A DNA stretch of 64,000 nucleotides from an uncultured bacterium (GTDB taxonomy: Bacteria > Patescibacteriota > Minisyncoccia > Moranbacterales > GWC2-37-73): assembly GCA_903851135.1 (NCBI GenBank), contig CAINNK010000008.1:13136-77135 (forward strand), read 5' to 3'. How positions within the stretch are numbered: position 1 is the stretch's first letter; the number at the start of each line of letters is the position of its first letter. Shown piece after piece: positions 3 to 59,659 of this stretch. The position numbers and the translations under genes were made by a program. The notes under the pieces were generated by a model. The model did no database searches and was not told where the DNA came from. It saw only the letters and a list, made by a program, of their open reading frames with translations.

Positions 3-1379
3 TCTTCATATTTTAGAGGTTATAAAACCGATGCGAATATACGAATTGATGCGAATCTGCGAATAAAACATTTAGAACAAGTTGAACATTTACAACACCT
101 AGAACATAATTTCGTGCCTGGGCGGAGTGAGTGGATTGGGTCGATGATGCCGTTGGTGGAAGAGGTTGAATTTGAGCAAACGGATTCAGTGCTGGAAGCT
201 TTGATCTTAGAAAGCAATCTCATCAAAAAACATCAGCCAAAATATAACACCCTGGAAAAAGATGACAAAAGTTTTGCCTATTTTGTGATCACCAAAGAAG
301 AATTCCCAAAGGTGTTGATAATGCGCAAGACGGATATTGAAAAAGTTCACAATTCACAGTTGTTGGTTCATAGAAAAAAAGCAATCAAAAAAAGGCCTGT
401 TGACGGTGAACTAGTAACTAAGAACATTTACGGGCCTTATACGAGCAAGCAGCAGATGCAGATTGCGCTGAAAATCATGCGGCGGATTTTTCCGTTCCAC
501 GGCGGCAAGCAGAAAACCGAGAAGGGCTGTTTGGATTTTCAATTGGGATTGTGTCCGGGGCCGTATGCTGGTGCAATCTCCAAAGAAGACTACAAGAAAA
601 ATATTGATGGCATCAAGCTGATTTTGAGCGGCAAGAAAAAAAGACTGCTTTCCGGCTTAGAAAAAGAAATGAAAATTTTGGCCAAGCAAAATGAATTTGA
701 AAAAGCGGCGCAGGTTCGGAACAAGATTTTTGCCTTGCAGCACATTCGCGATGTGGCACTCATCACACGTGATATGGAATCATCGTCAACAGTTCACAGT
801 TCACATTTCACAGATGCGAACGAATTATCGAGGGGGATAGGAACTGTGAACCGTGAACCAAGAACTATCCGAATCGAGGCGTATGACATTTCGAATATTT
901 CCGGCACTGATGCAGTGGGTTCGATGGTGGTTTTTGAAAATGGTGAGTCGAATAAAAGTCAGTATCGCAAGTTTAAAATCAAAACCGTTGATGGTAGCAA
1001 TGACGTGGCTATGATGAAAGAAGTTTTACTCAGGCGTTTCAAAAATGATTGGGCGATGCCGGATTTGATTTTGCTTGATGGTGGAATTGGTCACGTTAAT
1101 ATGGCTGAAAAATTGTTGCGTCAAGAGCTGGGCTTGGACGTTGCGATTGTTGGGGTGGCAAAAGGACCAACGAGGAAAAATCTCAAATTACAAATGGCAA
1201 ATTCTCACCCAAAGGGTGATCAGCCTTTGGCTGACAATAAAGTTCCAATGACTCAATTTCCAAAACAGTTGCAGAATTTTTTGAATGATAAGAATTTGGT
1301 CAAAAGTATTATGGATGAGGCGCATCGTTTTGCGATTACGTTTCACAGGAAACTGAGAGGGAAGAATGCACTAAAATAA
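3..1379 (+). CDS. uvrC: Excinuclease ABC subunit C (UvrC), 5'-partial; reading frame is open from nt 3, so the N-terminus lies upstream of the window
   Basis: End of the GIY-YIG domain (ALILESNLIKKHQPKYN), UVR-domain-like FEKAAQVRNKIFALQHI, UvrC endonuclease domain motifs RIEAYDISNISG...VGSMVVF, DLILLDGGIGHV, EAHRFAITFHR. No C-terminal HhH region before the stop. Frame 3 has no stop between nt 3 and the annotated ATG at 114. Confidence 0.8.
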   Translation, partial: SSYFRGYKTDANIRIDANLRIKHLEQVEHLQHLEHNFVPGRSEWIGSMMPLVEEVEFEQTDSVLEALILESNLIKKHQPKYNTLEKDDKSFAYFVITKEEFPKVLIMRKTDIEKVHNSQLLVHRKKAIKKRPVDGELVTKNIYGPYTSKQQMQIALKIMRRIFPFHGGKQKTEKGCLDFQLGLCPGPYAGAISKEDYKKNIDGIKLILSGKKKRLLSGLEKEMKILAKQNEFEKAAQVRNKIFALQHIRDVALITRDMESSSTVHSSHFTDANELSRGIGTVNREPRTIRIEAYDISNISGTDAVGSMVVFENGESNKSQYRKFKIKTVDGSNDVAMMKEVLLRRFKNDWAMPDLILLDGGIGHVNMAEKLLRQELGLDVAIVGVAKGPTRKNLKLQMANSHPKGDQPLADNKVPMTQFPKQLQNFLNDKNLVKSIMDEAHRFAITFHRKLRGKNALK

Positions 1380-1424
1380 TATATGATACTTTGCGTATTT
1401 AGAGAGTGAGGGTATAATTAAATT

Positions 1425-1817
1425 ATGCGAAAAATATTGAGAAAATATTTAACGGGTTTAATGCTGGCGGCCATCGTCTTGGTGGTTGGTGGTTTTTGCA
1501 GTGCGCCGATGGCGGGCGCTTCTTCGTCTGAGATGAACGGAATGACTGAGATTAGTGATGTTCATTGTGGGTCGGCTGACCACCTTGCGAAACATAAGGC
1601 TCCGATTAGCGACGCAATGATGCCGTGCTGCGTGGAAAAACATGACAATTCGTCAGTTTTCACGCCAGTTGCGCCAAATGAAAAAATCAGATTCGAGCAA
1701 GTTTCGATTGCTGAGCAATCGGTTTTGCTAGTTCAAACGATAAATCAAAAAACTTATGCTTCTTCGTCGTCTCCTCCGGAGCCTGACCTTCTTTTTTCTA
1801 GCGTGCGACTAGAATGA
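1425..1817 (+). CDS. Secreted Cys/His/Met-rich small protein, putative metal-binding (adjacent to copper-transport genes)
   Basis: N-terminal signal/TM segment (LMLAAIVLVVGGFCSAPMAGA). Motifs HCGSADHLAKHK and MMPCCVEKHD. Lies immediately upstream of the HMA/CopA genes. No specific family recognised. Confidence 0.45.
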   Translation: MRKILRKYLTGLMLAAIVLVVGGFCSAPMAGASSSEMNGMTEISDVHCGSADHLAKHKAPISDAMMPCCVEKHDNSSVFTPVAPNEKIRFEQVSIAEQSVLLVQTINQKTYASSSSPPEPDLLFSSVRLE

Positions 1818-2026
1818 AAAAATCTTTAACCTTGTTTTGAGGCAAGGTTGTTTGTGGTGGGCGATACATTGCAACACTTCGCTCGCATACGTTTTTGTTT
1901 TTATCCTAGTGAAAGTTTTTTTTGACTATTGGAAATTTTGACGCCAAGGTAAATCACTTTCAAACGAAAAAACAAAAAGTATGTTCGCTCGCTTCGTATG
2001 GTTCAGAGAAAAATGCAGAAGTGTGA

Positions 2027-2067
2027 AATTCTAAAATCTAGAATCTAAAATCTAGAATCTAAAATCT
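2027..2067. repeat. Heptamer tandem repeat (AATCTAA/AATCTAG)n
   Basis: Directly visible: ttctaaaatctagaatctaaaatctagaatctaaaatctg. The same family recurs at 18764-18794, 44796-44825, 58624-58660, 60007-60040 and 61670-61696, and inside rlmN near 40316-40352. Confidence 0.9.
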
Positions 2068-2114: not shown

Positions 2115-3569
2115 ATGAATAATAAAATAATTGTTCCGATTGCCGGCATGCATTGCCGCAGCTGCGAACTTTTGGTTGAGGACAGTTTGTCAGAAGTTAC
2201 AGGCGTTCGGCGCAGTGTGGTTAATTTCAAAAAGGGCACGGCTGAAATTAATTTTGACGGGCAAAAACCTAATGAGGTTGAAATTGAAAAAGCAATTCGC
2301 GGTGCTGGGTATAGCCTTGGCAGTGACAAACCAAAAACTTGGCTGAGCAAAAATCCCGAGGATTATAAAGATTTGGCAGTGGCTGGAATTTTTTTGGTTG
2401 GTTTGTTTATTGTTGCGAAAAATCTCGGGCTGACAAATGTCAATCTTGGTGGCGTTTCAAATCCATCTAGTTTGGGCGTGGTTTTTTTGGTGGGAATTAC
2501 GGCTGGGCTTTCAACTTGCATGGCCTTGGTGGGTGGGCTGATTTTGGGAATTGCGGCCAGGCATAATGAGAAACATCCTGAGGCGAGCGCAATGCAAAAA
2601 TTCAGGCCGCATTTGTTTTTTAATCTCGGAAGAATTGGTGGCTATGCATTTTTCGGAGCAATTCTTGGCTCACTTGGCTCAGCCTTGCAAATGTCAGGTC
2701 TAGTTTTGGGAATTTTGACTATTGCAGTTGGGCTGGTGATGTTGGCGCTGGGAGTTAAATTGTTGGGAATTTTTCCGCGTTTGGAAAATGCTGCCATTTC
2801 TTTGCCAACAAGTGTGGCTAAATTCTTTGGAATCAAAAAAGAAGTTAAAGAATATAGTCATTGCGGTTCAATGCTCACGGGCGCCCTGACATTTTTTCTG
2901 CCTTGCGGTTTCACCCAGGCGATGCAACTTTTTGCAGTGAGCTCTGGCAGTCCTGTTCAAGGGGGTTTGATTATGGGCATTTTTGCTCTTGGAACGGCGC
3001 CAGGTTTGCTTGGGGTGGGCGCTATCACTTCAGTTGTGAAAGGAATTTTTGCTAAACGTTTTTTCAAGTTTGCAGGAGTCCTGGTGATCATCTTGGCATT
3101 CTTCAATATTGCCAATGGCTTTAATTTGGCAGGCTGGCAGAATCCAACAGTTAACAGTTCACAGTCAACAGTTCATAGTCAAAGTGTTGATCCGAATGTG
3201 AAGATGGAAAATGGGGCGCAGGTAGTTAGTATGGTTGAGGCTGGCAGTGGATATTCACCGAACAAGTTTACTATCAAAAAAGGTGTGCCAGTGCGCTGGG
3301 TGATTGATGCTCAAGCTCCAAATTCTTGTGCTAGCAGTATTTTGGTTTCAAGTTTGAATATTCGAAAAACTTTAACAGCAGGACAAAACGTGATTGAATT
3401 TACGCCAAAGGAGGTTGGCAAAATTCCATTTTCTTGCGGCATGGGGATGTATACTGGTGTTTTCAATGTGGTGGATGACCAAGGCAATGGCGCTGGCGCA
3501 GTTGATGAAAAAGCTCCGGGCGCTAATATTCCTAGTGGAGTCTGCACTGTTAACGGATGTGGGAATTAA
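2115..3569 (+). CDS. Heavy-metal-associated (HMA) domain membrane protein (DsbD_2/TauE-like polytopic core) with C-terminal cupredoxin-like domain
   Basis: N-terminal HMA fold with GMHCRSCE (CxxC). About 8 hydrophobic helices including LPCGFTQAM. C-terminal soluble domain with FSCGMGMY, reminiscent of cupredoxin_1/EfeO-like copper sites. Contains an in-frame low-complexity insert NPTVNSSQSTVHSQSV (3141-3180). Confidence 0.7.
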   Translation: MNNKIIVPIAGMHCRSCELLVEDSLSEVTGVRRSVVNFKKGTAEINFDGQKPNEVEIEKAIRGAGYSLGSDKPKTWLSKNPEDYKDLAVAGIFLVGLFIVAKNLGLTNVNLGGVSNPSSLGVVFLVGITAGLSTCMALVGGLILGIAARHNEKHPEASAMQKFRPHLFFNLGRIGGYAFFGAILGSLGSALQMSGLVLGILTIAVGLVMLALGVKLLGIFPRLENAAISLPTSVAKFFGIKKEVKEYSHCGSMLTGALTFFLPCGFTQAMQLFAVSSGSPVQGGLIMGIFALGTAPGLLGVGAITSVVKGIFAKRFFKFAGVLVIILAFFNIANGFNLAGWQNPTVNSSQSTVHSQSVDPNVKMENGAQVVSMVEAGSGYSPNKFTIKKGVPVRWVIDAQAPNSCASSILVSSLNIRKTLTAGQNVIEFTPKEVGKIPFSCGMGMYTGVFNVVDDQGNGAGAVDEKAPGANIPSGVCTVNGCGN

Positions 3570-3718: not shown

Positions 3719-6139
3719 ATGAAAAGAATAAATTTATCCCTTTCTGGCATGCATTGCACTTCGTGCGCAATGTTGGTCGAGAGAACGCTTGGAAAAACGC
3801 CTGGCGTCCAAAAAGCTAGTGTGAATTTTCCGGCTGAAAAAGTTTTGGTTGATTTTGATGAGCAGATAACTGATGTGCAAAAAATCATCGCAGCCATTGG
3901 GCGGGGTGGTTATGGTGCGCAAGAAGTTGATGCTAAAGATAGTGAGTTTGAAGGCAAGAAAATAGCCAAAGAAGTTTCTGATTATTTCAGTAGGTTTATT
4001 TTCAGTGCAATTTTGAGCTCTCCAATGCTGTATTTCATGCTGCTGGATTTTTTCAAGTGGCTGCCTGGTGAAAAAGGCCTGGCACCATACGTGGGAATTT
4101 TCTCGCTGCTGCTGACGATTCCGGTGCAGTTTGTGGTTGGCAAAGATTTTTATAAAGGCATGTGGGCGGCACTGAAAATGAAAACTTTCAACATGGATAG
4201 CTTGATTGCAATTGGGACTTCGACGGCTTTTTTCTATAGTTCGTATAATTTTGCAACTTATGCAATTGCCAACAAGTCTGTGATTGGAGCGGGCGGAGCG
4301 AAAATTCCAGATCTCTATTTCGAAACCGCTGCCTATTTGATAACCTTCGTTATTTTGGGAAAGTGGTTGGAAATTCGCACTAAGGGAAAAACTTCTGATG
4401 CTATCAAAAAGTTGATGGGAATGCAGGCTAAGACTGCACGTGTCCTTCGGCAGGCTCAAGATAAAATTATCGAGATTGATATTCCGATTGAAGAAGTTGT
4501 GCATGGTGACATTATTCTTGTGCGTCCGGGAGAAAAAGTTCCAGTGGATGGAAAAATGACCAAAGGCGCATCTTCAGTGGATGAGTCCATGCTTACTGGG
4601 GAAAGTTTACCGGTAGAAAAAAGTGTCGGTAGCTTCGTGGTTGGAGGAACAATCAACAAGACTGGAAGTTTTGAATTTGAGGCCACAAAAATTGGCTCAG
4701 AAACGACGTTGGCTCAGATTATCCGCCTGATTGAAGAGGCTCAGGGATCAAAAGCACCGATTCAAAATTTTGCTGACAAAATTGCAGCTTGGTTTGTGCC
4801 AGCTGTAATTGGGCTTGCAATACTAACGTTTCTTGCTTGGTTCTTCGTGCTTGGCGGAACTTTGGCATTTTCACTTATGGCTTTCACTTCAGTGATTGTG
4901 ATTGCCTGCCCTTGTGCGTTGGGATTGGCCACGCCAACTTCCTTAATGGTGGGAACTGGCAAGGGTGCTGAGTATGGAGTGCTCGTGAAAGGTGGAGAAG
5001 CGCTTGAAGCAGCCAGTAATATTTCAGCGGTAATCTTTGACAAAACTGGAACACTTACTCATGGGAAACCGCAGGTGACGGATATCATGTCAATTGGCGA
5101 CATGGACGAGGATGAGATATTGGCAGTTTCCGCAAGTCTGGAAAAGCTTTCTGAACATCCCTTGGCGGAAGCGATTTATACGCATGCTCAAGAAAAAAAT
5201 ATCAACTTAAAAAATGTTGATGATTTCAATTCGATTCCTGGCCATGGTGTCAAAGGTAGTATTGGCGGAGTTGTTTATCATTTTGGCAATCGCAAGTTGG
5301 CGAGTGATTTGAGAATTAGTTTTGAGCATGTTAATGCTGAGCTGGAAAAGTTGGAGAATGAAGGCAAGACAGCGATGATTTTGACCGATGAAAAAAATGT
5401 TTTGGCCATCATTGCAGTGGCGGACACTGTGAAAGAAACTTCGCGCGAAGCTGTGGCAAAATTAAAAATGATGGGCATTGAAGTTTTCATGATTACTGGT
5501 GATAATTTGCGAACTGCTAAAGCGATTGCAAAACTTGTTGGCATTGACGAGCAGCATGTTTTGGCTGAGGTTTTACCTGAGGACAAAGCTAATGTGGTTA
5601 AGGCCTTGCAAGAAAATAATGTAAAAAAGCTTTCCGAATTATTTGGAAATTGGAAATTGGAAATTGGAAATTCTCGCCAAAGGCGAGCTGTGGCTATGGT
5701 TGGTGATGGCATTAATGATGCTCCGGCTTTAGCACAGGCTAATGTGGGCATTGCGATGGGCACAGGAACTGACGTGGCGATGGAGGCAGGCGATATTGTG
5801 ATTATGAAAAGTGATTTGAATGATGTGGTGACTTCACTGCAACTTTCCAAAGAAACCATGGGCAAGATTCGGCAGAATATGTTCTTTGCTTTGTTTTATA
5901 ACGTGATTGGCATTCCGATTGCGGCTCGGGTTTTCTTTGCGTTTGGATTGATTTTAAAACCGGAATTAGCAGGCTTGGCGATGGCGATGAGTTCGATTTC
6001 GGTGGTAGGAAATTCCTTGTTGCTGCGATTATTCAAACCTGGCAAAAAGAATTATATTTCAATGATTGCTCCAGTATTCATGGTCGTTGTTTTCACTTTT
6101 GGATTTGTGTTGTTTGCCAAGTTGAGTAGTGGTATGTAG
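3719..6139 (+). CDS. copA: Copper-translocating P1B-type ATPase (CopA family)
   Basis: N-terminal HMA with [13 protein letters not shown] motif ([11 protein letters not shown]). Phosphorylation site DKTGTLT. Motifs TGDN and [11 protein letters not shown]. 806 aa. In-frame repeat insert [20 protein letters not shown] (about 5630-5690) encoded by ttggaaattggaaattggaaatt. Confidence 0.92.
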
Positions 6140-15059: not shown

Positions 15060-15340
15060 AATAGATTTAAAGGCAATGAGGGAGCTATCACTCTCTCGCC
15101 CAGGTGAAATTTTCGCTTTGCGAATTTCACTGGGCAGGCCATGCGAAGAAAATCGCCAAGGAGGCGGAAAGTAGAACGCGTCGGGTAGGCCCGTAACAGC
15201 TTGAAAAGAGGGCTTTAGCTTCATTAGCTTCGTTAGTTTTTAGGAAAATGAATTTTTTCTATAAGCTATAAGCTATAAGCTATAAGCTAAACTAAGGTGG
15301 TACCACGAATCATTTCGTCCTTATGCATTTTTTGCGTAGG
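15060..15340 (+). promoter_or_regulatory. T-box riboswitch-like leader of ileS (GC-rich structured 5' region with antiterminator T-box sequence)
   Basis: AAGGUGGUACCACG at 15294-15307 matches the T-box consensus AGGGUGGNACCGCG. Helix A1 AAGG/CCUU, 7-nt bulge UGGUACC (UGGU matches the tRNA-Ile NCCA end with discriminator A) and helix A2 ACG/CGU are all present. The GC-rich island 15085-15200 contains an AUCA triplet in a hairpin loop. ileS is a classic T-box-regulated gene. Confidence 0.45.
15262..15287. repeat. Heptamer tandem repeat (ATAAGCT)4
   Basis: ctataagctataagctataagctataagcta, directly 5' of the T-box motif. Confidence 0.9.
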
Positions 15341-15546: not shown

Positions 15547-18500
15547 ATGAATTTTAAGAAGGTTGATGTCAAACAAAGTTTTCCGAAGATGGAGGAAGAG
15601 ATTTTGAAATTTTGGGAAACTGAAAAAATTTTTGAAAAATCTTTGGAAAAAACCAAGGGTGGGAAGCCCTACACTTTTTTTGATGGGCCACCTTTTGCGA
15701 CGGGCACGCCTCATCATGGGCATATTGTGGGCAGTGTGATGAAAGATGTGGTGCCGAGATTTTGGACAATGAAAGGACGACATGTGGAAAGAAAATGGGG
15801 TTGGGATTGCCATGGGCTGCCGATTGAAAACATTGCTGAAAAAGAATTGGGTTTCAAGCACAAGAAAGATATCGAGGAATATGGTGTTGATAAGTTCAAC
15901 GAGTTTTGTCGCAGCAAAGTTTTGGGTTATGTGGATGATTGGAAAAAAGTAATCAACCGATTGGGCCGCTGGGCTGACATGGAAAATGCCTACAAGACCA
16001 TGGATTTGAAGTATATGGAATCAGTTTGGTGGGTTTTCAAAGAATTGTGGGACAAAGGCTTGATTTATGAAGGTTATCGTTCCATGCACATTTGCACTCG
16101 CTGCGAAACCACCCTTTCTCAACAGGAAGTTTCGGAAGGATACAAGGATATCAAGGATTTATCAGTGGTTGCAAAGTTTGAGTTGCTCTCTACGAATTAC
16201 CTGCCTACCGGACAGGCAGGCGAATCTGATACGAATGTACGAAAAGAAGACGAAGCCAAGACTTATATTTTGGCGTGGACAACGACGCCTTGGACTTTGA
16301 TTGGAAATGTGGCGCTGGCAGTGGGGAAGGATATTGAATATGAATATTTACAAATAGATGCTAGTGATAGCGCTAAATTCAATAAGGGCGATATTTATAT
16401 TGTAGGTTTGGAAAAAATTAAAAATGTATCAGGAGGAACTTTAGCTGTTTATGATTGGGGATACAATGTTAATTTTGCAAATGAGGGTAACGTTTCTTTT
16501 AAGCGAATAAAGACCATAAAGGGTTCTGATCTGATTGGTAAAACCTACAAGCCGCTTTTTGATTATTATCAGACTCCGGATTTGGAAAATGCAGAAAATG
16601 GCTGGAAAATTTATGCGGGTGATTTTGTGACGACGGAAGATGGAGTGGGTGTGGTGCATATCGCGCCGGCTTTTGGGGAGGATGATATGAATTTGGGAAA
16701 GGAAAACAATTTGCCTTTCATTCAGCATGTGAAAATGGATGGAACCATTAAAGAGCAAGCGACTGACTTTGCTGGGATGAATGTAAAATCCTTGGAAGAT
16801 CATATGCAGACTGACATTGAAATTATCAAATATCTGGCAAAGCATGGCACGCTTTTTTCCAAAGAAAAATATGAGCACAGTTATCCGCATTGTTGGCGCT
16901 GCGATACACCGTTAATCAACTACGCAACCACTTCTTGGTTTGTCAGTGTTGGCAAAGTGAAGCAGCGAGCGCTTGAGCTAGCCAAGGAAATCACTTGGTT
17001 TCCGGCGCATATCAAAGATGGACGTTTCGGAAAATGGTTGGAAGGCGCTCGTGATTGGTCAATTTCCCGTCAGCGTTTTTGGGCGTCAGTGATGCCGATT
17101 TGGCGCTGTGAATGCGGCGAGATGAAAGTTTTTGGCTCAGTAGCTGACTTGGAAAAAGTTTCAGGTGAAAAAATATCAGACTTGCATAAACACATTGTCG
17201 ACAAAATAACTGTGCCATGTGAAAAGTGTGGAAAACAAATGCACCGCGTGCCGGATGTTTTGGACACTTGGTTTGACTCTGGTTCGATGCCATATGCTCA
17301 GCAGCACTATCCATTTGAAAATCAAGAAAAATTTGAAGACGGTTTTCCAGCTGAATTCATCGCAGAGGGCGTGGATCAAACTCGCGCTTGGTTTTATTAT
17401 TTGCATTTGATTGCCACGGCCATCAAAGATAAAAATGCTTTCAACAATGTCATCGTTAATGGAATCGTGTTGGCGGAAGATGGCAAGAAAATGTCCAAGC
17501 GGCTGCAGAATTATCCAGATCCGACTTATCTTTTTGACAAATATGGAGCTGATGCTCTCAGATTTTATTTGATGTCTTCGCCAGTGGTGGCTGCGGACAA
17601 TTTGAATTTCAAAGAAAGCGATGTTTCTGATTTGGTGCGCGGAATGTTTCGCATGCTTTGGAATTCGTATTCGTTTTTTGCACTTTACGCCAACATTGAT
17701 GGCTTTGATTCAAAAAAGAAAAATGAAAAATCCGAAAATCTTTTGGACAAATGGATTTTGTCAGAACTGCATATTCTCATCAAAGAAGTCAATGAAAATA
17801 TGGAAAAATATGATTTGGCACGCACAGCCAGACTGTTTCCAAAATTTATCGACAATCTTTCCAATTGGTACATTCGCCGCTCTCGCAAAAGATTTTGGAA
17901 ATCTGAAAATGATGCTGACAAGGATTTTGCTTATCAAACTCTGCACACCGTGTTGGTTGAACTTTCAAAATTGATGGCACCATTCACGCCGTTCATGTCG
18001 GAAGAAATTTACAGGAATTTGGTTAGCAGTTCACAGTCAACAGTTCACGGCGAAGAGAGTGTTCATCTTGCTGATTTTCCAGTGGCGGATGAGAGTTTGA
18101 TTGATGAAAAGTTGAATGAAGACATGGAATTGGTAAGATTTATTGTTACGGAGGGGCTTAGAAGTCGTGCTGAGCATAAAATAAAAGTAAGGCAACCATT
18201 GAAATCTGTAACTGCAAGACCAATAAGAATTGAATTGCAAGAAATGGTAAAAGAAGAACTTAATGTTAAAGAATATAATAGTGATGGTTTTAAAGATGGC
18301 GAAGAAGGATTTTTTAATATGTTAGATCTTTCTATTACTCCCGAACTTAAACTCGAAGGTCAAGCTCGTGAAATTGTGCGTTTCATTCAGGAAATGCGTA
18401 AGCAGGCAGGTTATGAAGTTGAAAATCATATCAGCGTTCAATTCGAAGGTCTTGATGAAGTTTTTGAAAAGTTTTCAGATTTGATTGCCAAGGAAACTTT

Positions 18501-39785: not shown

Positions 39786-41006
39786 ATGAACAATCAAAAA
39801 TTGGAACAATTTTTGCAAGATAATAATTTGCCCAAGTTTCGCTTGGGACAAATTCAAAAAGCCATCTTTCAAGACGGAGCTACTTCGTTTGGGGAAATTA
39901 CAACCCTTTCAAAAGATTTGCGAGAAAAAATGGAAAAGGAAATGAGAATCCTTTCTTTTGAGGTTGAAAAAGTTTTGGTGGCCGGTCCTGCCCGCAATGC
40001 TACGCGTAATGTTGCGAATGGCTTTGCTAATAATAACATTTCTTTGTCTCAACAATCTGAAGATAATAACGAGCATAGCGTTGCAGGCGGGGACGGTCAA
40101 TCAATTAAGGCGCTTTTGAAACTTGTTGATGGAAACCTGATTGAAACCGTCCTGATTTCACCCAAGCCGGGCACTTGGTCAGCATGCATTTCTTGCCAGG
40201 TTGGTTGCGCGATGGGTTGCCGCTTTTGCGCCACTGGCAAAATGGGTTTCAAGCGAAATCTGACCGCCGAAGAAATCACCGATCAGATTCTTTTTTGGAA
40301 ACAATACCTTTCTAAAAATCTAAAATCTAAAATCCTAAATCCTAAAACGGATGTTGCTGAAAATAATAAAAAAAATAATTCTGAGCCTTTTGGAATTTGT
40401 AATTTAGAATTTGGAAATTACAATATTGTAAACAATATTGTCTATATGGGTATGGGTGAGCCTTTTAATAATTGGGAAAATGTTTCCCAAAGCATCAATG
40501 ATTTGACAAATGAAAAATTGTTTGGCTTTGGATCGCGCAGTCTTTCGGTTTCAACTTCCGGGATTGCTAGTGGCATTGAAAAAATGTCCAAAGAGTTTCC
40601 GCAAGTAAATCTGGCCATTTCTCTGCATTTTGCCAGTGACGAAAAACGTGACCGTTATATGCCGGTCAACAAAGTTGACAATCTGGAGAATCTAAAAAAA
40701 GCTTTGCAAGAATATTTTCAGGTGACAAAACGAAAAGTTTTTTTGGAATATATTATGCTCGATGGAGTCAATGACACCGCCTTGGATGCCAAAATGCTGG
40801 CGCAGTATTTGCACAGTGTTGGCAATGCACATCTTTTGCATGTGAATTTAATTCGCTATAATGCGACCAGTGTAGATCTGAAACCTTCCTCAAAAAACAG
40901 AACGCAACTTTTCAAAAAAGAATTGGAAAAATATTTCATCAACGCCACCATCCGCAAAAGTTTAGGTGAGGAGATCAAAGGAGCTTGCGGGCAATTGGCC
41001 TCTTAA
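39786..41006 (+). CDS. rlmN: 23S rRNA (A2503-C2)/tRNA methyltransferase RlmN (radical SAM)
   Basis: N-terminus LPKFRLGQIQKAIFQDGATSFGEITTLSKDLREKM. Radical-SAM CQVGCAMGCRFC. C-terminal GACGQL. Contains an about 45-aa in-frame low-complexity insert (NLKSKILNPKTDVAENNKKNNSEPFGICNLEFGNYNIVNN) encoded by (CTAAAAT)n and tttggaatttg repeats at 40316-40440. Confidence 0.9.
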   Translation: MNNQKLEQFLQDNNLPKFRLGQIQKAIFQDGATSFGEITTLSKDLREKMEKEMRILSFEVEKVLVAGPARNATRNVANGFANNNISLSQQSEDNNEHSVAGGDGQSIKALLKLVDGNLIETVLISPKPGTWSACISCQVGCAMGCRFCATGKMGFKRNLTAEEITDQILFWKQYLSKNLKSKILNPKTDVAENNKKNNSEPFGICNLEFGNYNIVNNIVYMGMGEPFNNWENVSQSINDLTNEKLFGFGSRSLSVSTSGIASGIEKMSKEFPQVNLAISLHFASDEKRDRYMPVNKVDNLENLKKALQEYFQVTKRKVFLEYIMLDGVNDTALDAKMLAQYLHSVGNAHLLHVNLIRYNATSVDLKPSSKNRTQLFKKELEKYFINATIRKSLGEEIKGACGQLAS

Positions 41007-41839: not shown

Positions 41840-43480
41840 CTATAACTTTTTCACTAAATACGTGTCCTTTAATTTGTATCCAGCTTTTCGATAATAATTT
41901 CGCACGCCGATGCCGGAGATGACGACAATTTTTTTCAGGCCATATTCTTCTTTGGCGATACGCTCAGCTTCGAGCAGCAGTTTTTTCCCCAGGCCGATAT
42001 GCTGTGGCGATTTGGAATCCTTTTCATCAATTTGGGTCATTTTACCATAGGTGTGAACTTCGCGGATGATAGCTGCGTTTTGAAGAACAGGCAACATTTT
42101 ATACATTTTGTCATTCCCACAGGAACTTGGAATTCGCAAACGCAAAAGGGCAAAAAGTTTTTTCTTGTCTGGGCTGACATATTGCAGAAAAATTTCGCGG
42201 CCATCGGAAGCAGTGTAGTCAATTCGATCCAAAACAATTGATTCTTTGATGGTGTAACCTTCGCGGACTTCACGGCAACGAATGCAGGGACAATTTGACT
42301 GGGGAATAATGATCTGACGTAGATTAGAAACTGTCGGACCAGCGATGATTGAGCAGGTCGGCACATCTCGAATCAGACGAGCAATGCGAACATAGGGAAC
42401 AATCGCCTCATTTTTGATTTTCAAAACCAATTTTTCAAAAATCTTATTCGTCAGTGGTTTGTAGTTTCCATTTTTCCAGATTTTATAGAGTAAGCTGTTT
42501 TTTAAAACGACAGTTGGATAAATTTTGAGCATGTCGGGTTGAAATTGTTGATTTTCAAAGAGGGTCTTAAACATCTCAAAATCCCGCTTGGGGGTTGATC
42601 CTGGCAGTCCTGGCATCATGTGATAGTTGATCTTGAAACCGGCATCCTTGAGCAATTTGGTTGCTTGGATTGTGCTTTGGATAAGATGTCCGCGTTTATT
42701 GAAAACCAAAACATCGTCATAAATGCTTTGCACGCCAAGTTCCACTCGGGTGCAGCCAAGCTCTCGAAAATTGAGAATTTCTTTTTCATTGATATAGTCC
42801 GGCCTGGTTTCCAAAGTTAGCCCAATAATCCGATGTTTAGTCTTCTCATTTTTCTTCTGCTGGATTTCCATTTTATCATTTGCACTTAGCGTTCCACGTT
42901 CCACGTTTTGCATTTTACGTTCACGTTCCACGTTCCACGTTCCACGCTTCGCGTATTCATTGCACGCCTGAAAACACCTCGTGATAAATTTTTTCTGATA
43001 AGCTTTGGGCAGATAGGAAAAAGTTCCGCCCATCACAATCAATTCGATTTTGTCGGTTTTGTGACCATTAAGTTCCAGTGAGCGCAAGCGACTTTGGACT
43101 TGCAAATATGGGTCGAAATGCGAATCAATGGCCCGCATCACGGCCGGCTCATTGGAGAGATAGCTTTTCGGCATTTCTTTTTCACTGGGGCAATAAATGC
43201 ATTTGCCTGGACAAGGATATGATTTGGTTAGCACTGCCACCACAGCCACGCCTGATTGGGTGCGGATGCGACGACTGAGCAGAATTTTTTCGAAAGCGGG
43301 GTTGGGCTTGACGATGTTTTCCAAAACCAAATCATTGTAGCGATCGCGCAAGTCAGCATTGGTTGGAATTGGAAGTTTGTATTGTTTGGAAAGTTTTTTC
43401 TTGAGCTGCAAAAACTCCTCCTGGGTTTCAGGAAGCTCTTCAATTGCCGAGATGATGAAATTGTCGTAAGCTGAATTCAT
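41840..43480 (-). CDS. Elp3-family radical SAM / GNAT acetyltransferase (tRNA U34 carboxymethyl-type modification enzyme homolog)
   Basis: Elp3 hallmarks SYPCPGKCIYCP (radical SAM cluster) and a C-terminal GNAT region (HIGLGKKLLLEAERIAKEEYGLKKIVVISGIGVRNYYRKAGY). 546 aa. Carries an in-frame (GTTCCAC)n-derived insert AKRGTWNVERERKMQNVERGTL (plus-strand 42884-42950). Confidence 0.85.
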   Translation of the reverse strand: MNSAYDNFIISAIEELPETQEEFLQLKKKLSKQYKLPIPTNADLRDRYNDLVLENIVKPNPAFEKILLSRRIRTQSGVAVVAVLTKSYPCPGKCIYCPSEKEMPKSYLSNEPAVMRAIDSHFDPYLQVQSRLRSLELNGHKTDKIELIVMGGTFSYLPKAYQKKFITRCFQACNEYAKRGTWNVERERKMQNVERGTLSANDKMEIQQKKNEKTKHRIIGLTLETRPDYINEKEILNFRELGCTRVELGVQSIYDDVLVFNKRGHLIQSTIQATKLLKDAGFKINYHMMPGLPGSTPKRDFEMFKTLFENQQFQPDMLKIYPTVVLKNSLLYKIWKNGNYKPLTNKIFEKLVLKIKNEAIVPYVRIARLIRDVPTCSIIAGPTVSNLRQIIIPQSNCPCIRCREVREGYTIKESIVLDRIDYTASDGREIFLQYVSPDKKKLFALLRLRIPSSCGNDKMYKMLPVLQNAAIIREVHTYGKMTQIDEKDSKSPQHIGLGKKLLLEAERIAKEEYGLKKIVVISGIGVRNYYRKAGYKLKDTYLVKKL

Positions 43481-44788: not shown

Positions 44789-44831
44789 AAATATATTCTA
44801 AAATCTAGAATCTAAAATCTATATTCTATTA

Positions 44832-45647
44832 ATGAACATTTTTCAATCAATCATACTTGGTATCTTGCAGGGTTTGGGTGAGTTTTTGCCGATTTCGTCG
44901 ACGGCGCATTTGATTTTGGCGCCGTGGTTTTTTGGTTGGAGTGATCCAGGCCTTTCTTTTGACGTGGCGCTTCATCTGGGAACCCTGATTGCTGTGGTTG
45001 GATTTTTTTGGCGAGATTGGCTTATTATTTTTCAGCTTGCGCTTCAAAAAATTTCAAATTTCAAATTTCAAATTTCAAATTCTGCGGAGAAGTATCCTTC
45101 ACAGCTGCTTTGGCTCTTGGTCATCGCTTCTGTTCCGGGCGCAATTTTCGGAATGCTTTTTGACAGCAAGGCGGAAGCGACTTTTCGCAATCCGCTTTTG
45201 ATTGCTTTTACTTTGAGTGTGGTCGGGTTGATTTTGTTTTTGGTAGATAAATATGCCGCCCATCGCAAGGAGCTTGGCAAGCTGACAAAACTGGACGCAT
45301 TTTGGATTGGTCTTTCTCAGGCCGTGGCCATTATTCCGGGCGTATCACGCTCTGGGGCCACAATGACCACGGGACTTTTCTTGGGACTCTCACGCCAGCA
45401 AGCAGCCCGTTTTTCTTTTTTGCTTTCTACCCCAATCATTTTTGGGGCGGCCATTGTGAAAGTCCCGCATCTCTTGAAAGATGGAATCAGTATGGCAATT
45501 CTTTTTGGCATTTTAGCCTCGGCCATTACTGGTTATTTGGCCATCAAATTCATGCTTCGCTTCATTCAAAAAGTTGGCTACGCCCCATTTTTTTGGTATC
45601 GCTTGGCCTTGGCTGCGGTTGTGGTGATGGTATATTTTTTGAGGTAA
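44832..45647 (+). CDS. uppP: Undecaprenyl-diphosphatase (UppP/BacA)
   Basis: N-terminus ILGILQGLGEFLPISSTAHLILAPWFFGWSDPG...FDVALHLGT. Second conserved block GVSRSGATMTTGLFLG. In-frame (TTCAAAT)3 insert KISNFKFQISNS at 45050-45080. Confidence 0.9.
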   Translation: MNIFQSIILGILQGLGEFLPISSTAHLILAPWFFGWSDPGLSFDVALHLGTLIAVVGFFWRDWLIIFQLALQKISNFKFQISNSAEKYPSQLLWLLVIASVPGAIFGMLFDSKAEATFRNPLLIAFTLSVVGLILFLVDKYAAHRKELGKLTKLDAFWIGLSQAVAIIPGVSRSGATMTTGLFLGLSRQQAARFSFLLSTPIIFGAAIVKVPHLLKDGISMAILFGILASAITGYLAIKFMLRFIQKVGYAPFFWYRLALAAVVVMVYFLR

Positions 45648-46349: not shown

Positions 46350-46392
46350 ACAAAAGAATATTCCTAATTCTTAAAGGATAACTCCTAAACAT

Positions 46393-46680: not shown

Positions 46681-46745
46681 TCAGCCTTTGGCTGAAAATT
46701 TTAAAGAACTTTATAATTTTATAACTTTAAAAACTTTATAACTTT

Positions 46746-49231: not shown

Positions 49232-49334
49232 CATACAGATAAACACTGATGAAAAACTGATCAGCGCAGATCACGGATAATCTGTGATTAGTGAAAATCC
49301 GTTATTCATCCGTGAGAATCAGTAATTAACAAAA

Positions 49335-49880: not shown

Positions 49881-49956
49881 AGTAAAAACTTTTAATTTTC
49901 CTGTGTCTTTGACAGCTTCTCTGGAAGATTAAAATTTAGGAGAAATTTTATAGATA

Positions 49957-50031
49957 TTGTTATATTGCTAAATTGTTATATTGCTAAAATGCATGATTAA
50001 CAATATAGCAATATGGCAATATAACAATTTA
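49957..50031. promoter_or_regulatory. Palindromic TTGTTATATTGCTAAA module (tandem and inverted copies) forming the rplK upstream region; near-identical copy upstream of the gene at 52099
   Basis: ttgttatattgctaaattgttatattgctaaaatgcatgattaacaatatagcaatatggcaatataacaatttaaatttATGG. The 52018-52098 copy ends caatttaaattATGG. Single arms lie at 19527-19563 and 28047-28075. Confidence 0.5.
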
Positions 50032-50036
50032 AATTT

Positions 50037-50462
50037 ATGGCAAAGAAAATCAAGACAGTTATCAAGCTCCAAATTGTTGGAGGCAAGGCAAATCCAGCGC
50101 CGCCAGTCGGACCGGTTTTGGGACAGCATGGTGTGGCAATTCAGGAATTTTGTATGCGCTTTAATGATGCAACCAAAGATAAGATGGGAGAGGTTGTGCC
50201 AGTTGAAATCACAATCTTTGAAGACCGAACTTTTGATTTCATCATGAAGACTGCTCCAGCTGCAGAACTTTTGAAAAAAGCTGCTGGTGCTGCCAAAGGT
50301 GCAGCTAATCCGCTTAAGGAAAAAGTTGGTACAGTGACCAAGGCTCAGCTCGAAGAAATTGCCAAGGCTAAAATGGTTGATTTGAATGCTAATGACGTAG
50401 AAGGTGCAATGCAAATCGTAGCAGGTTCAGCCAGATCAATGGGAATTAAGATAGAAGGATAA
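50037..50462 (+). CDS. rplK: 50S ribosomal protein L11
   Basis: [38 protein letters not shown] is the canonical L11 N-terminus. 141 aa. Confidence 0.95.
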
Positions 50463-50625
50463 CTAATCAATGCGGATTGATAACGGATTAGCACAGATCG
50501 CAGATTAGAATAAAAAATTCGTGATTAGTGAAAATCCGTAATTAATTAGTGTAAATCAGTTTTATTTAAATATGTGGGAGGACTGAGCAACTATTGCGTA
50601 GTCTGTTATTACCACAACAAACGTT

Positions 50626-51950: not shown

Positions 51951-52098
51951 GTTTAGAGTTTCCTTGTTTACTTGTAATTTCTCTAGAAAATTAAAATTTA
52001 AGTAGAACTTTTATAGAAATTGTTATATTGCTAAATTGTTATATTGCTAGAATGCATTATTAACAATATGACAATATAACAATGTAGCAATTTAAATT

Positions 52099-54455: not shown

Positions 54456-54456
54456 T

Positions 54457-58621: not shown

Positions 58622-58666
58622 ACAGATTCTAGAATCTGGATTCTTGATTTTAGTATCTGCGGAAAG

Positions 58667-59659
58667 TTATTCAAGAAATTTTTGCACTTCTTTTCGGATA
58701 CTCTTATAATCACTGCACCAAATGATGTTCGGATTTCTTTGAAGCCAAGTCATTTGTCTCTTGGCGTAGTGAATGATGGCAAAATATAGTTTTTCGCGTG
58801 CACCCGAGGCGCATCCGCCTTGGGCGGACATTTCTCCTAATTCTATTTTTCCTTGCAAGAATCTGGAAATCCAGCGATATTCCAAGCCGATTCTTTCTAG
58901 CCATTCCCATGAAACTCCCTGTTTATGCAGTTTTTCCACTTCGGCAGTCATACCTTCTTTGAATCGCTCATCTAGGCGGATTTGGATTTTTTCATTTAAA
59001 ATTTCCCTTGAAACCCTGATCCCAATTTCCAAGAAATTGTATTTTACTGTGAACTGTGAACTAGTAACAGTGAACTGTGCTGGCACCTTTCCAATCGCTT
59101 GGCAAATTTCAATGGCTCTGATTAGGCGCACTTTATTTTGACTATCGATATTTTTGGCGCGCTCGGGATCAAGTTTTTCAAGTTTTGCAAACAATTCTTC
59201 TGTGGTTTCCAGGGCAAGTTGCCCGCGCAGAATTTCATCTGGCGGAACTTCCGGCAGGTTCAAATCTTTGGTTAGCGCATCAATCCAAAAAGCCGTTCCG
59301 CCGCAAATAATGGGAATTTTTTTGCGACTGAGAATCTCCTTGATTTTCTCTTCGGCCATTTTTTTGAAATGCGAAACGTTGAAATCTTCTTGGGGTTTGG
59401 CTACGTCAATCAAATGATGTCGGATGCCTTTGGAAAAGAAACCTTCCCTTGGTTGGAAAATTGAAAATTTGAAATTGAAAAATCCCGTGAAATCTTTTCT
59501 GACTTTACCGGTTCCGATGTTTAGACCTTTGTATATTTGTCGGCTGTCAGCCGAAATGATTTCGCCACCGAATTTCTTGGCAAGCTTAATAGCCACATCT
59601 GATTTTCCAGAGGCTGTGGGGCCCATGATGACTATTATTTTCGGCTTATCTTTCGACAT
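58667..59659 (-). CDS. miaA: tRNA dimethylallyltransferase
   Basis: P-loop IIVIMGPTASGKS and ISADSRQIYKGLNIGTGK. Two in-frame repeat-derived inserts (KDFTGFFNFKFSIFQPREGFFSKG from the ttggaaa repeat at 59455-59480; QFTVTSSQFTV from the cagttcacagt repeat at 59037-59075). Confidence 0.9.
   Translation of the reverse strand: MSKDKPKIIVIMGPTASGKSDVAIKLAKKFGGEIISADSRQIYKGLNIGTGKVRKDFTGFFNFKFSIFQPREGFFSKGIRHHLIDVAKPQEDFNVSHFKKMAEEKIKEILSRKKIPIICGGTAFWIDALTKDLNLPEVPPDEILRGQLALETTEELFAKLEKLDPERAKNIDSQNKVRLIRAIEICQAIGKVPAQFTVTSSQFTVKYNFLEIGIRVSREILNEKIQIRLDERFKEGMTAEVEKLHKQGVSWEWLERIGLEYRWISRFLQGKIELGEMSAQGGCASGAREKLYFAIIHYAKRQMTWLQRNPNIIWCSDYKSIRKEVQKFLE

What the first reader, a model, noticed from the sequence alone, without database searches (positions are those of the whole stretch)
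785..59075. Same CAGTTCACAGT micro-repeat inserted in-frame, same sense, in four unrelated conserved genes
The module (A)CAGTTCACAGT(T/C)(A/C)ACAGTTCA occurs at 785-815 (uvrC), 3141-3180 (HMA transporter), 18028-18055 (ileS) and, as its reverse complement on the plus strand, at 59037-59075 inside minus-strand miaA. In every case it is read in the same sense and frame, giving S-S-Q-S-T-V-H-S-like peptides: SSSTVHSSHF, SSQSTVHSQSV, SSSQSTVHGEES, TVTSSQFTV. Each sits at a position where homologous proteins lack this insertion, as judged from memory of uvrC, ileS and miaA homologues, not from an alignment. This looks like a short insertion module that has colonised coding sequence, with selection retaining only frame-preserving, tolerated copies.
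Basis: seen in the sequence. Interest (0 to 1): 0.75.

Follow-up and report, generated by a model that had tools for sequence, protein, structure and literature searches.

The report
Heptamer repeats inside Moranbacteria housekeeping genes
The "module" is one family of 7-base tandem repeats, of the kind known from cyanobacteria, that pepper this candidate-phylum (Moranbacteria) genome; they survive inside essential genes only in floppy loops and only in the stop-free orientation. The repeat is real and mildly novel, but its "same sense, same frame" pattern is mostly an automatic consequence.

Summary
CAGTTCACAGT (up to 1 mismatch) occurs 11 times against 0.78 expected, at the four stated genes.

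It is a heptanucleotide tandem repeat (unit CAGTTCA, variant CAGTCAA). There are two more degenerate copies in uvrC, and one of them is antisense.

The window comes from a Candidatus Moranbacteria (CPR) genome. Period-7 arrays are strongly over-represented there: 22, against 0-2 for periods 5, 6 and 8-11. At least 10 genes carry in-frame arrays of several unit families.

"Same frame" is largely automatic, because 3 x 7 = 21 nt reads all three phases. "Same sense" is forced, because the reverse complement TGAACTG puts TGA in every phase.

Only ileS is a clean lineage-specific insertion (+24 nt; relatives at 83-92% identity have the empty site). In miaA, the DsbD/HMA gene and uvrC the repeat fills loops or linkers that exist in all orthologues, and relatives fill them with other heptamer families.

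A copy-paste component is suggested. The ileS and HMA arrays are 25/26 identical, and the same module sits at the same ileS codon in a second clade.

Closest known: cyanobacterial STRRs, heptanucleotide long simple sequence repeats, and TAACTGA repeats.

Verdict: a new member of a known kind, of moderate interest.

The parts
785..812 (+). CAGTTCA-family heptamer array in the uvrC interdomain linker (GTCAACA GTTCACA GTTCACA TTTCACA; peptide SSTVHSSHFT)
   Evidence: D12; host gene identified
839..866 (+). Degenerate antisense copy of the same family in uvrC (GAACTGT GAACCGT GAACCAA GAACTAT; peptide GTVNREPRT). The in-frame TGA of a perfect antisense array is absent here (CCA AGA in its place).
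   Evidence: weak hairpin with 785-812 as DNA (-12.5 kcal/mol, z = -2.87)
345..370 (+). Degenerate fifth copy of the family in a second uvrC hot spot (GTTCACAATTCACAGTTGTTGGTTCA; peptide VHNSQLLVH)
   Evidence: D12, 73% to the reference copy; hot spot visible in alignment A2
3146..3182 (+). Array in the linker between the DsbD_2 membrane domain and the cupredoxin domain of the HMA protein (GTTAACA GTTCACA GTCAACA GTTCATA GTCAAAG; peptide TVNSSQSTVHSQS)
   Evidence: orthologue linkers
18022..18048 (+). 27-nt array in ileS (GTTAGCA GTTCACA GTCAACA GTTCAC; peptide VSSSQSTVH). Net +24 nt relative to the empty site TTG ACT GGG of close relatives. 25/26 identical to 3150-3175.
59046..59079 (-). Array in miaA, read on the minus strand (GTTCACT GTTACTA GTTCACA GTTCACA; peptide AQFTVTSSQFTV). 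It lies in a coil loop with pLDDT below 50.
59456..59481 (-). Second heptamer array in miaA, of another family (AATTTTC/AATTTCA; peptide FFNFKFSIF). It accounts for about 18 extra residues relative to solved MiaA structures and lies in a segment with pLDDT below 50.
5643..5672 (+). Perfect (TTGGAAA)x4.3 array in the P-type ATPase gene (GNWKLEIGN). The same 30-nt-long TTGGAAA array with the same peptide occurs in an ATPase gene of relative L088; orthology of the two genes was not tested.
40315..40346 (+). AAAATCT-type array (a stop-containing unit) inside the RlmN-like gene. It is kept open by one 8-nt unit that shifts TAA out of frame (KNLKSKILNPK).
42890..42946 (-). CGTGGAA arrays in a radical-SAM gene (RGTWNVERE...NVERGT)
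   Evidence: D11, D15
45049..45081 (+). Perfect (AAATTTC)x4.7 array in the BacA/UppP gene (KISNFKFQISN)
60757..60787 (-). CGTGGAG array in miaB (RGTWSVERGA). It shares a 34-nt module with 42872-42905.
   Evidence: D11
2026..2067 (.). Example of the intergenic AAAATCT/TCTAGAA family, whose unit has stops in both orientations. Other copies: 18763-18793, 44173-44385 (within a 47-nt higher-order array), 44792-44829, 60005-60040.
   Evidence: D3, D6
15259..15289 (.). Intergenic perfect (CTATAAG)x4.4 array, whose unit has stops in both orientations

Best explanation
The CAGTTCA 'module' is one family of heptanucleotide tandem repeats, that is, long simple sequence repeats of the kind called STRRs in cyanobacteria. 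These are abundant in this Candidatus Moranbacteria lineage. Inferred mechanism: arrays are generated and remodelled by replication slippage or unequal alignment with a lineage-specific preference for 7-nt steps. They are occasionally seeded at new places by short templated copying from an existing array. Shown: selection then filters them. Arrays whose unit contains a stop in both orientations persist only between genes. Arrays open in one orientation persist in genes only in that orientation, and only where the net length change is a multiple of 3 and the protein tolerates extra residues, such as disordered loops and interdomain linkers. The encoded S/T/Q/V/H peptides are by-products that act at most as neutral flexible filler. 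'Same sense' follows from TGA in the antisense unit. 'Same frame' follows from 7 and 3 being coprime.
For: Period-7 excess: 22 arrays against 0-2 for periods 5, 6 and 8-11 in the window. The same holds in close relatives L084, L085 and L087 (8, 3 and 4 arrays against 0-1 for every other period tested, 5, 6 and 8-10) and, more weakly, over 1.04 Mb of Moranbacteria-like loci (59 for period 7 against 3 for period 8). Many unit families occur, and some are shared between genomes at non-orthologous places (AAAATCT, AAATTTC, AAATTGG, ACGCTCC). At least 10 window genes carry in-frame arrays. Stop filter: 18 of 28 intergenic arrays have units closed in both orientations, against 27% expected. Among 33 genic arrays, 27 are sense-open, and 9 are sense-open/antisense-closed against 1 of the opposite type. 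The reverse complement of the uvrC array has TGA in all three phases (read directly from the sequence). The both-ways-open family AAATTGG is translated in both orientations. Tolerant sites: the MiaA model has pLDDT below 50 at exactly 57-70 and 197-204, the two arrays. The IleRS insert aligns to a gap between segments of solved structure 8c8u. The uvrC and HMA sites are interdomain linkers. Turnover: orthologous loops hold different heptamer peptides in relatives. Perfect arrays encode three of these in MiaA loop 1 of L084, L085 and L087 (RGAWSVE, IQDTRYK, PISNFQF). The corresponding uvrC and HMA fillings of L088 (NFQFPIS, QQSTIN) were read from translations. New seeding: the ileS empty site in 83-92% relatives has no proto-repeat, and the inserted 26 nt is 25/26 identical to the HMA array. 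Published precedent: heptamers are the most over-represented long SSRs in many bacteria, and a polymerase-slippage explanation was proposed (as summarised in PMC4692102 and PMC4679880). Orientation-dependent stops and reverse-strand translation are described for TAACTGA repeats (PMC4679880).
Against: Slippage alone does not explain why 7 nt is preferred, nor the de novo appearance of a 24-nt insert with no local seed. Arrays show no copy-number variation among strain-level variants at 90% identity or more. The 30-nt TTGGAAA array has the same length in the ATPase genes of the window and of L088. Present-day slippage rates must therefore be low. The same module at the same ileS codon in a second clade, without similar flanks, is awkward for a purely random process plus selection. 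No enzyme was identified.
Confidence: 0.6

Rival explanations
1. A genuinely mobile mini-element: a module of about 26-27 nt (GTTANCA GTTCACA GTCAACA GTTCAY) spreads by an active copy-and-paste or site-specific mechanism. It would resemble the small dispersed repeats of cyanobacteria or REP/RAYT-type elements, with the tandem heptamer structure secondary.
For: 25/26-nt identity between the ileS and HMA copies, including the same variant middle unit (D12). The ileS empty site lacks any seed. The same module with the same +8 aa boundaries sits at the same ileS codon in a separate clade (P0270, P0305, P0309, P0348), with 20 nt identical in L171 and flanks not unusually similar. Other arrays also share compound modules with flanks (42872/60740, D11; TCTAAAATCTAGAA at 2030 and 44797).
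Against: No target-site duplication, no terminal inverted repeats and no conserved ends. The uvrC and miaA copies differ in unit order and length. No exact CAGTTCACAGTTCA 14-mer in the 87 related loci then held. A later regex over all about 2.45 Mb of loci found the ACAGTTCACAG 11-mer only in the window and in same-organism loci L001-L003, and the CAGTCAACAGT 11-mer only in the window and in L171/L172. No associated transposase was seen in the window, and none was searched for systematically. (CAGTTCA)n arrays also occur in unrelated viral contigs of 36-61% GC, mostly without a long open frame in any phase at the site, consistent with recurrent origin.
Confidence: 0.2
2. The repeats are retained because the encoded hydrophilic S/T/Q/H-rich peptides are useful flexible linkers. 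On this view selection for protein function, not tolerance, explains their presence and their sense orientation.
For: They sit in linkers and loops. The ileS, uvrC and miaA copies are invariant, and the HMA protein keeps its length, among strain-level variants. The TTGGAAA array has the same length and peptide in L088.
Against: Relatives at 83-92% identity function with an empty ileS site. The same loops hold chemically unrelated fillings in relatives, including hydrophobic NFQFPIS/FFNFKFSIF and GC-rich hairpin elements. The DNA is periodic at every codon position, as expected for a DNA-level process rather than selection on amino acids.
Confidence: 0.1
3. They are contingency loci: 7-nt units shift the frame by slippage and switch these genes on and off (phase variation).
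For: The unit length is not a multiple of 3. Some arrays are perfect and 4-5 units long.
Against: The hosts are essential single-copy housekeeping genes. No length variant at any array was seen among cluster members or among at least 18 independent contigs carrying the identical MiaA. The CAGTTCA arrays are short and imperfect.
Confidence: 0.03
4. Assembly or sequencing artefact, or chance low-complexity coding sequence.
For: The source is metagenomic.
Against: Identical proteins were recovered from many independent assemblies and sources (ENA, JGI, NCBI, Logan). 11 matches against 0.78 expected.
Confidence: 0.01

Closest known systems
STRR (short tandemly repeated repetitive) heptanucleotide sequences of heterocystous cyanobacteria (Mazel et al. 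1990; unit sequences CCCCAGT, TTGGTCA, CAACAGT recalled from memory, not checked here)
   Same: 7-nt units in short head-to-tail arrays. Several unit families per genome. Copies are dispersed at many loci, both intergenic and translated within ORFs. The variant unit here, CAGTCAA/GTCAACA, is a rotation of CAACAGT (STRR3, from memory).
   Different: The host is a CPR bacterium (Moranbacteria), not a cyanobacterium. The main unit CAGTTCA is different. Here the arrays are documented inside essential housekeeping enzymes, with filled and empty sites among close relatives.
Over-representation of heptanucleotide long SSRs in prokaryotic genomes (Mrazek et al. 2007, as summarised in PMC4692102 and PMC4679880); GGGNATC repeats of Xanthomonas and Nostoc (PMC4692102)
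   Same: A specific excess of period 7 over neighbouring periods. Enrichment in intergenic DNA. Under-representation in coding DNA. The proposed link to polymerase slippage.
   Different: Those repeats are G-rich, G-quadruplex-forming and mostly intergenic. Here the units are AT-rich and varied, and about half of the arrays are in genes.
TAACTGA heptamer direct repeats of Beggiatoaceae, cyanobacteria and Bacteroidetes (MacGregor 2015, PMC4679880)
   Same: A heptamer that gives stop codons in all three frames in one orientation and is translatable in the other (LSVISYQ there, QFTVHSS here). Patchy phylogenetic distribution. Some copies lie inside ORFs. The reverse complement TCAGTTA resembles the AACAGTT/CAGTTAA variant at 3146.
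   Different: TAACTGA repeats are mainly just upstream of start codons, and a regulatory role was proposed. Here the family studied is mainly intragenic and no positional link to start codons was seen.
Rickettsia palindromic elements (RPE) and other MITE-like repeats inserted in frame in protein genes (Ogata et al. 2000, from memory; review PMC3184786, seen only as a title and abstract, not read for this point)
   Same: Selfish repeat DNA tolerated in frame in conserved, even essential, proteins at surface sites.
   Different: From memory, RPEs are about 100-150 bp palindromic elements. The CAGTTCA arrays are 24-37 nt direct heptamer repeats without inverted termini. True small hairpin elements do co-occur in this window (ileS 16201-16221; uvrC 1178-1238), but they are separate families.
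Small dispersed repeats (SDR) of Nostoc/Anabaena (Elhai et al. 2008, from memory; cited by PMC3116915 and PMC2884548)
   Same: Elements of about 21-27 nt that appear copied to many sites, including genes and heptamer arrays.
   Different: SDRs have defined conserved sequences and ends. Here only two or three copies share a 26-nt module.
Borg tandem repeats that create intrinsically disordered regions in proteins (PMC9879509)
   Same: Rapidly evolving tandem DNA repeats that add disordered peptide segments to proteins.
   Different: From my recollection of the paper (only its abstract was seen here), Borg units within ORFs are multiples of 3 nt and arise locally. Here the unit is 7 nt, so frame is kept only by the total length, and one DNA unit yields a 7-residue peptide period.

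Membership tests
Heptanucleotide LSSR / STRR-like tandem repeats | Repeat unit of 7 nt in head-to-tail arrays of at least 2-3 copies | tested here: met
   Tandem Repeats Finder gives period 7 at 789-813, 3146-3173 and 59046-59079. The ileS array is 4 units.
Heptanucleotide LSSR / STRR-like tandem repeats | Period 7 over-represented relative to neighbouring periods in the genome | tested here: met
   22 arrays against 0-2 for periods 5, 6 and 8-11 in the window. Exact runs: 21 against 0 for periods 8-12. Close relatives: 8, 3 and 4 arrays against 0-1 for every other period tested, 5, 6 and 8-10.
Heptanucleotide LSSR / STRR-like tandem repeats | The same unit recurs at many dispersed loci | tested here: met
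   The CAGTTCA family occurs at 6 places in 4 genes. The AAAATCT family occurs at 6 or more intergenic places.
Heptanucleotide LSSR / STRR-like tandem repeats | Enrichment in non-coding DNA | tested here: met
   28 of 61 arrays lie in the roughly 13-36% non-coding part (19% in the window) of the window and close relatives.
Cyanobacterial STRR in the strict sense | Host is a (heterocystous) cyanobacterium; units are STRR1-3 | tested here: not met
   Homologues carry source names of Candidatus Moranbacteria / Moraniibacteriota. The main unit is CAGTTCA. Only the variant unit equals a rotation of CAACAGT (unit sequences from memory).
MITE / RPE-type in-frame palindromic element | Terminal inverted repeats or a palindromic fold, with a defined length of about 100-150 bp | tested here: not met
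   Arrays are 24-37 nt direct repeats. Only uvrC has an inverted partner, with a weak fold (-12.5 kcal/mol, z = -2.87).
MITE / RPE-type in-frame palindromic element | Target-site duplication at filled versus empty sites | tested here: not met
   ileS filled versus empty alignment shows no duplication.
MITE / RPE-type in-frame palindromic element | In-frame presence in conserved proteins at tolerant sites | tested here: met
Phase-variable contingency SSR | Copy number varies among closely related strains | tested here: not met
   No array-length variants among members of the 90% clusters or among at least 18 contigs with identical MiaA.
Small dispersed repeats (mobile mini-elements) | Copies share a defined sequence and ends and appear at new sites without a local precursor | tested here: inconclusive
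   The ileS and HMA copies are 25/26 identical and the ileS empty site has no seed. The same module occurs at the same site in a second clade. The uvrC and miaA copies do not share ends.
Small dispersed repeats (mobile mini-elements) | An associated enzyme that moves them | not tested
   No systematic search for a transposase or recombinase was made. A co-occurrence analysis across whole genomes is needed.

The most novel reading that the evidence does not exclude
The roughly 26-nt compound module GTTANCAGTTCACAGTCAACAGTTCAY is an actively copied mini-element with site preference. It has inserted independently at the same IleRS codon in two Moranbacteria clades and into other genes. If so, these CPR genomes would have an unknown short-patch, template-driven insertion mechanism that continually writes new peptide segments into essential proteins.
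Probability: 0.2. Interest if true: 0.7.

Novelty: new member of a known kind. Interest (0 to 1): 0.45.

Why it matters
The finding extends the poorly understood heptanucleotide-repeat phenomenon (STRRs, long SSRs) to the Candidate Phyla Radiation.

It also gives an unusually clean natural experiment. In small genomes with few genes, essential enzymes (IleRS, UvrC, MiaA, MiaB, RlmN, UppP, a P-type ATPase) carry these repeats in frame. Closely related metagenomic lineages show empty, filled and differently filled states of the same loops.

That makes two open questions tractable by comparative genomics: why 7 nt is favoured, and whether arrays spread by copying.

It also explains much of the striking length variation of Moranbacteria orthologues (UvrC ranges from 391 to 688 aa). 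And it warns annotators that low-complexity 7-residue-period inserts in CPR proteins derive from repeat DNA.

Tried and rejected
(1) 'Same frame' as evidence. Rejected: any in-frame reading of (CAGTTCA)n gives a cyclic permutation of QFTVHSS.

(2) Sense bias as evidence of directional insertion. Rejected: antisense has TGA in all phases; a degenerate antisense copy survives in uvrC where the stop is mutated; and a both-ways-open family occurs in both orientations.

(3) Import of the ileS module by homologous recombination from the second clade. Sliding identity around the module shows no patch of raised similarity to L171.

(4) Hairpin or MITE structure at uvrC. The fold is only weakly better than shuffles.

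(5) Strain-level copy-number variation. None found.

It served only as a background for period statistics.

(7) Three encoding-contig look-ups returned no DNA.

(8) Literature searches. Two full-text searches combining a CPR term ('Candidate Phyla Radiation' or 'Patescibacteria') with repeat or insertion terms listed no paper on heptamer repeats in CPR among the titles shown. A search for the STRR unit sequences was swamped by primer sequences. Two searches failed on term length.

(9) Viral-contig scans. (CAGTTCA)3 occurs in 4 unrelated viral contigs, mostly without a long open frame in any phase at the site. The 18-mer of the compound module gave one hit, which I estimate to be at chance level.

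(10) Not used: the representatives search, fold search, RNA-family tools and the second structure job. They were not needed for the question.


Full report
OBSERVATION. The four sites are present as described. CAGTTCACAGT with up to one mismatch matches 11 times in the window, against 0.78 +/- 0.76 in dinucleotide-preserving shuffles, and no shuffle reached 11.

Tandem Repeats Finder reports the sites as period-7 arrays. So the 'module' is a heptanucleotide tandem repeat with unit CAGTTCA and variants CAGTCAA, CAGTTAA and CATTTCA.

Two further degenerate copies lie in uvrC. One is at 345-370 (VHNSQLLVH, family D12). The other, at 839-866, is in antisense orientation.

Pfam confirms the host genes: UvrC; a DsbD_2 membrane protein with HMA and cupredoxin domains; and IleRS. 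MiaA is confirmed.

CONTEXT: A GENOME FULL OF HEPTAMER ARRAYS. Source names of the closest homologues place the window in Candidatus Moranbacteria/Moraniibacteriota, in the Candidate Phyla Radiation.

The window has 22 period-7 arrays, against 1, 2, 0, 0, 0 and 0 for periods 5, 6, 8, 9, 10 and 11. Exact runs give 21 against 0 for periods 8-12.

The units are diverse. Intergenic arrays include AAAATCT, CTATAAG and ATACTTA. In-gene arrays include:
- TTGGAAA in the P-type ATPase;
- AAATTTC in BacA/UppP;
- CGTGGAA in a radical-SAM gene;
- CGTGGAG in MiaB;
- AATTTTC at a second site in MiaA;
- AAAATCT in the RlmN-like gene.

Syntenic relatives at 64-70% MiaA identity show the same period-7 excess (L084: 8, L085: 3, L087: 4 arrays, against 0-1 for every other period tested, 5, 6 and 8-10). 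They share unit families with the window at non-orthologous positions.

Over 1.04 Mb of more distant Moranbacteria-like loci, period 7 still exceeds period 8 (59 against 3). However, 51 of 80 loci have no period-7 array, and most other Patescibacteria loci have none either. The trait is therefore lineage-specific and patchy.

WHY 'SAME SENSE, SAME FRAME' IS NOT INFORMATIVE. Because 7 and 3 are coprime, three units (21 nt) present the unit in all three phases. Any in-frame reading of (CAGTTCA)n is a cyclic permutation of Q-F-T-V-H-S-S.

The reverse complement TGAACTG contains TGA. In the reverse complement of the uvrC array the TGAs fall in all three phases (read directly from the sequence). 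An antisense array of three or more units is therefore always closed.

The one antisense copy, uvrC 839-866, is degenerate precisely where a perfect array would give the in-frame stop: CCA AGA stands in place of CTG TGA.

I quantified this over the window and six close relatives:
- 18 of 28 intergenic arrays have units with stops in both orientations, against 27% expected from base composition.
- 27 of 33 genic arrays have sense-open units.
- One-way-open units are in the open orientation 9 times and in the closed orientation once.

As a control, the family AAATTGG is open both ways. It is translated both ways: GNWKLEI in the ATPase, NFQFPIS in UvrC and MiaA of relatives.

The RlmN-like gene carries a stop-containing AAAATCT array. 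It is kept open by a single 8-nt unit that moves TAA out of frame.

ARE THEY LINEAGE-SPECIFIC INSERTIONS? The answer differs by gene.

ileS: yes.
- Against solved IleRS 8c8u the query has 8 extra residues.
- 80 of 120 Moranbacteria IleRS have the 4-residue state TGE[ET].
- The relatives at 92% and 90% identity over conserved columns (P0242, P0243) have the empty DNA site TTG ACT GGG. The window has TTG GTT AGC AGT TCA CAG TCA ACA GTT CAC GGC, a net gain of 24 nt.
- A 96%-identical variant already has the insert, so the gain is recent.

miaA: no net insertion.
- The loop is as long in solved MiaA structures.
- Among Moranbacteria it is hypervariable and carries different 7-residue-period peptides: IQDTRYK, QSSVISH, TWNMEHG, KLQVTSN.

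HMA gene.
- The array fills a linker that exists in all 80 orthologues, with variable length.
- The 87% relative L088 has QQSTINQQ-type filling instead; a 17-nt CAACAAT array lies in its linker.

uvrC.
- The array lies in the linker before the RNase H-like endonuclease domain.
- Short orthologues have KSSVISHQSS or TSSVTSQQST there.
- The 81% relative has unrelated filling (HNVERITWNTEHKIQDTRYNNQ).
- Orthologue lengths range from 391 to 688 aa, with at least six such hot spots.

In relatives, perfect heptamer arrays lie in the first MiaA loop, the one that holds the AATTTTC array in the window (L084 CGTGGAG x4, L085 AAGATAC x3.3, L087 CCAATTT x4.6).

STRUCTURAL LOCATION. An AlphaFold2 model of MiaA built from the 40-sequence alignment has mean pLDDT 81. 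Confidence falls below 50 in four stretches: 47-51, 57-70 (the AATTTTC array), 197-204 (the CAGTTCA array) and 281-283 (a separate GC-rich insert). All of them are coil between well-predicted elements.

STABILITY. The identical MiaA occurs on at least 18 contigs from independent assemblies. Members of the 90% clusters show no length variation at any CAGTTCA array. They do differ by presence or absence of other small elements: LPTGQAG in IleRS and SAQGGCASGA in MiaA. An array of the same TTGGAAA unit, the same 30-nt length and the same peptide lies in the ATPase gene of L088. These are therefore not hypermutable contingency loci.

EVIDENCE FOR COPYING.
- The ileS array (18022-18047) and the HMA array (3150-3175) are 25/26 identical, including the same variant middle unit (D12).
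- The ileS empty site has no proto-repeat.
- A separate IleRS clade (P0270, P0305, P0309, P0348) carries the same +8-residue module at the same codon. This clade is 70-72% identical to the window and 83-98% identical within itself.
- In L171 the module DNA is identical over 20 nt, while flanking identity is ordinary: 0.65-0.75 against 0.686 gene-wide.
- That site is also a hot spot for unrelated small elements.

I could not decide between independent site-preferring insertion, very short-patch transfer and old polymorphism.

(CAGTTCA)3 also occurs in four unrelated viral contigs, mostly without a long open frame in any phase at the site. This fits recurrent origin of such arrays.

MECHANISM. 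Two things are shown. The arrays are heptamer tandem repeats with a genome-wide period-7 bias. Their placement and orientation follow a stop-codon, frame and tolerance filter.

The rest is inferred. Arrays probably arise and change by slippage with a 7-nt preference; the polymerase-contact hypothesis of Mrazek et al. is quoted in PMC4692102 and PMC4679880. They are probably sometimes seeded by templated copying from another array. The encoded peptides are probably neutral filler. Confidence is about 0.6.

Rivals:
- an actively mobile 26-nt module (0.2);
- selection for linker function (0.1);
- phase variation (0.03);
- artefact (0.01).

COMPARISON WITH WHAT IS KNOWN. The closest analogues are:
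- cyanobacterial STRRs;
- heptanucleotide long SSRs (PMC4692102);
- TAACTGA repeats, for which the same orientation-dependent stop logic and reverse-strand translation were described (PMC4679880).

In-frame selfish repeats in Rickettsia (RPE) and repeat-generated disordered regions in Borgs (PMC9879509) are analogous in outcome but differ in architecture.

Two full-text searches combining a CPR term with repeat or insertion terms listed no paper on heptamer repeats in CPR or Patescibacteria among the titles shown.

VERDICT. The finding is a new member of a known kind. The headline regularity is explained by simple constraints. The dense, fast-turning-over colonisation of essential CPR proteins and the recurrent ileS module remain worth a focused comparative study. 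Interest 0.45.

Noticed in passing
window 1178-1238, 46639-46699, 63515-63575: A composite double-hairpin element (TCTCACCCAAAGGGTGATCAGCCTTTGGCTGACAAT) occurs twice in what appear, from the ORF list, to be intergenic gaps, and once in frame inside uvrC, where it encodes SHPKGDQPLAD, absent from the orthologues aligned (D4).
   Followed up: partly
window 16201-16221 (ileS): A 21-nt perfect hairpin, CCTGCCTACCGGACAGGCAGG, is inserted in frame (LPTGQAG). It is absent from a 96%-identical IleRS variant. The same peptide occurs in the HMA-gene linker of another genome, L090.
   Followed up: partly
window ~58796-58825 (miaA, minus strand): A 30-nt GC-rich element encodes SAQGGCASGA. It is patchily present among Moranbacteria MiaA and absent from a 93%-identical variant. 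A similar AESALSGRVK/AQSASGG insert sits in the GIY-YIG domain of UvrC.
   Followed up: partly
window 44173-44385: A 47-nt tandem array (4.7 copies, 91% matches) is built around TAGATTT heptamers. It overlaps the last bases of the ORF ending at 44185 and extends towards the BacA gene, with an inverted AAAATCT array at 44792-44829.
   Followed up: no
window 12130-12166, 19517-19561, 28046-28082, 49953-50033, 52016-52095: A family of 8-nt-period repeats (ATTGTTAT/ATTGCTAA), several with inverted partners, lies mostly between genes and may be regulatory (D1, D8, I2, I7, I13).
   Followed up: no
window 32326-32474, 33498-33617, 49223-49329, 50450-50566: Four copies of a roughly 100-150-nt module (ACGGATT-rich, then GTGATTAGTGAAAATCCGT) lie, by the ORF coordinates, just upstream of ORFs at 32478, 33616, 49335 and 50626. 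They could be a shared leader or promoter (D5, D7, D10).
   Followed up: no
window 46264-46350: A palindrome TGTCATTCTGAACTTGTTTCAGAATCT / AGATCCTGAAACAAGTTCAGGATGACA. By my own translation it matches the 'LKQVQHD / LKQVQDD' peptides seen in frame in UvrC, MiaA and IleRS orthologues of other Moranbacteria (I19).
   Followed up: no
window 30-107 (uvrC N-terminal part): 18-nt tandem repeats encode DANIRIDANLRI and KHLEQVEHLQHLEH inside the GIY-YIG region. Orthologues carry other fillings there.
   Followed up: partly
window 42872-42966 and 60740-60800: MiaB and a second radical-SAM gene share a 34-nt module: the heptamer CGTGGAR array plus the flank TTAAATGCAAAA. This gives VERG(A/T)L(N/S)AK in both proteins (D11, D15).
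   Followed up: partly
whole window: GC skew is positive in every 4-kb block and about +0.15 to +0.25 in most of them, dipping to 0.07 at 40-44 kb and 0.03 at 60-64 kb. All long ORFs are on the + strand up to about 41 kb. The CAGTTCA arrays follow gene direction rather than the + strand.
   Followed up: no
L171 7475-7568 and IleRS orthologues: The IleRS site after ..EEIY(K/R)NL is a hot spot for many unrelated small elements in different Moranbacteria, including PHPNPLPEGEG, VETQNFAS-type elements, GQAG and LKQVQHG.
   Followed up: partly
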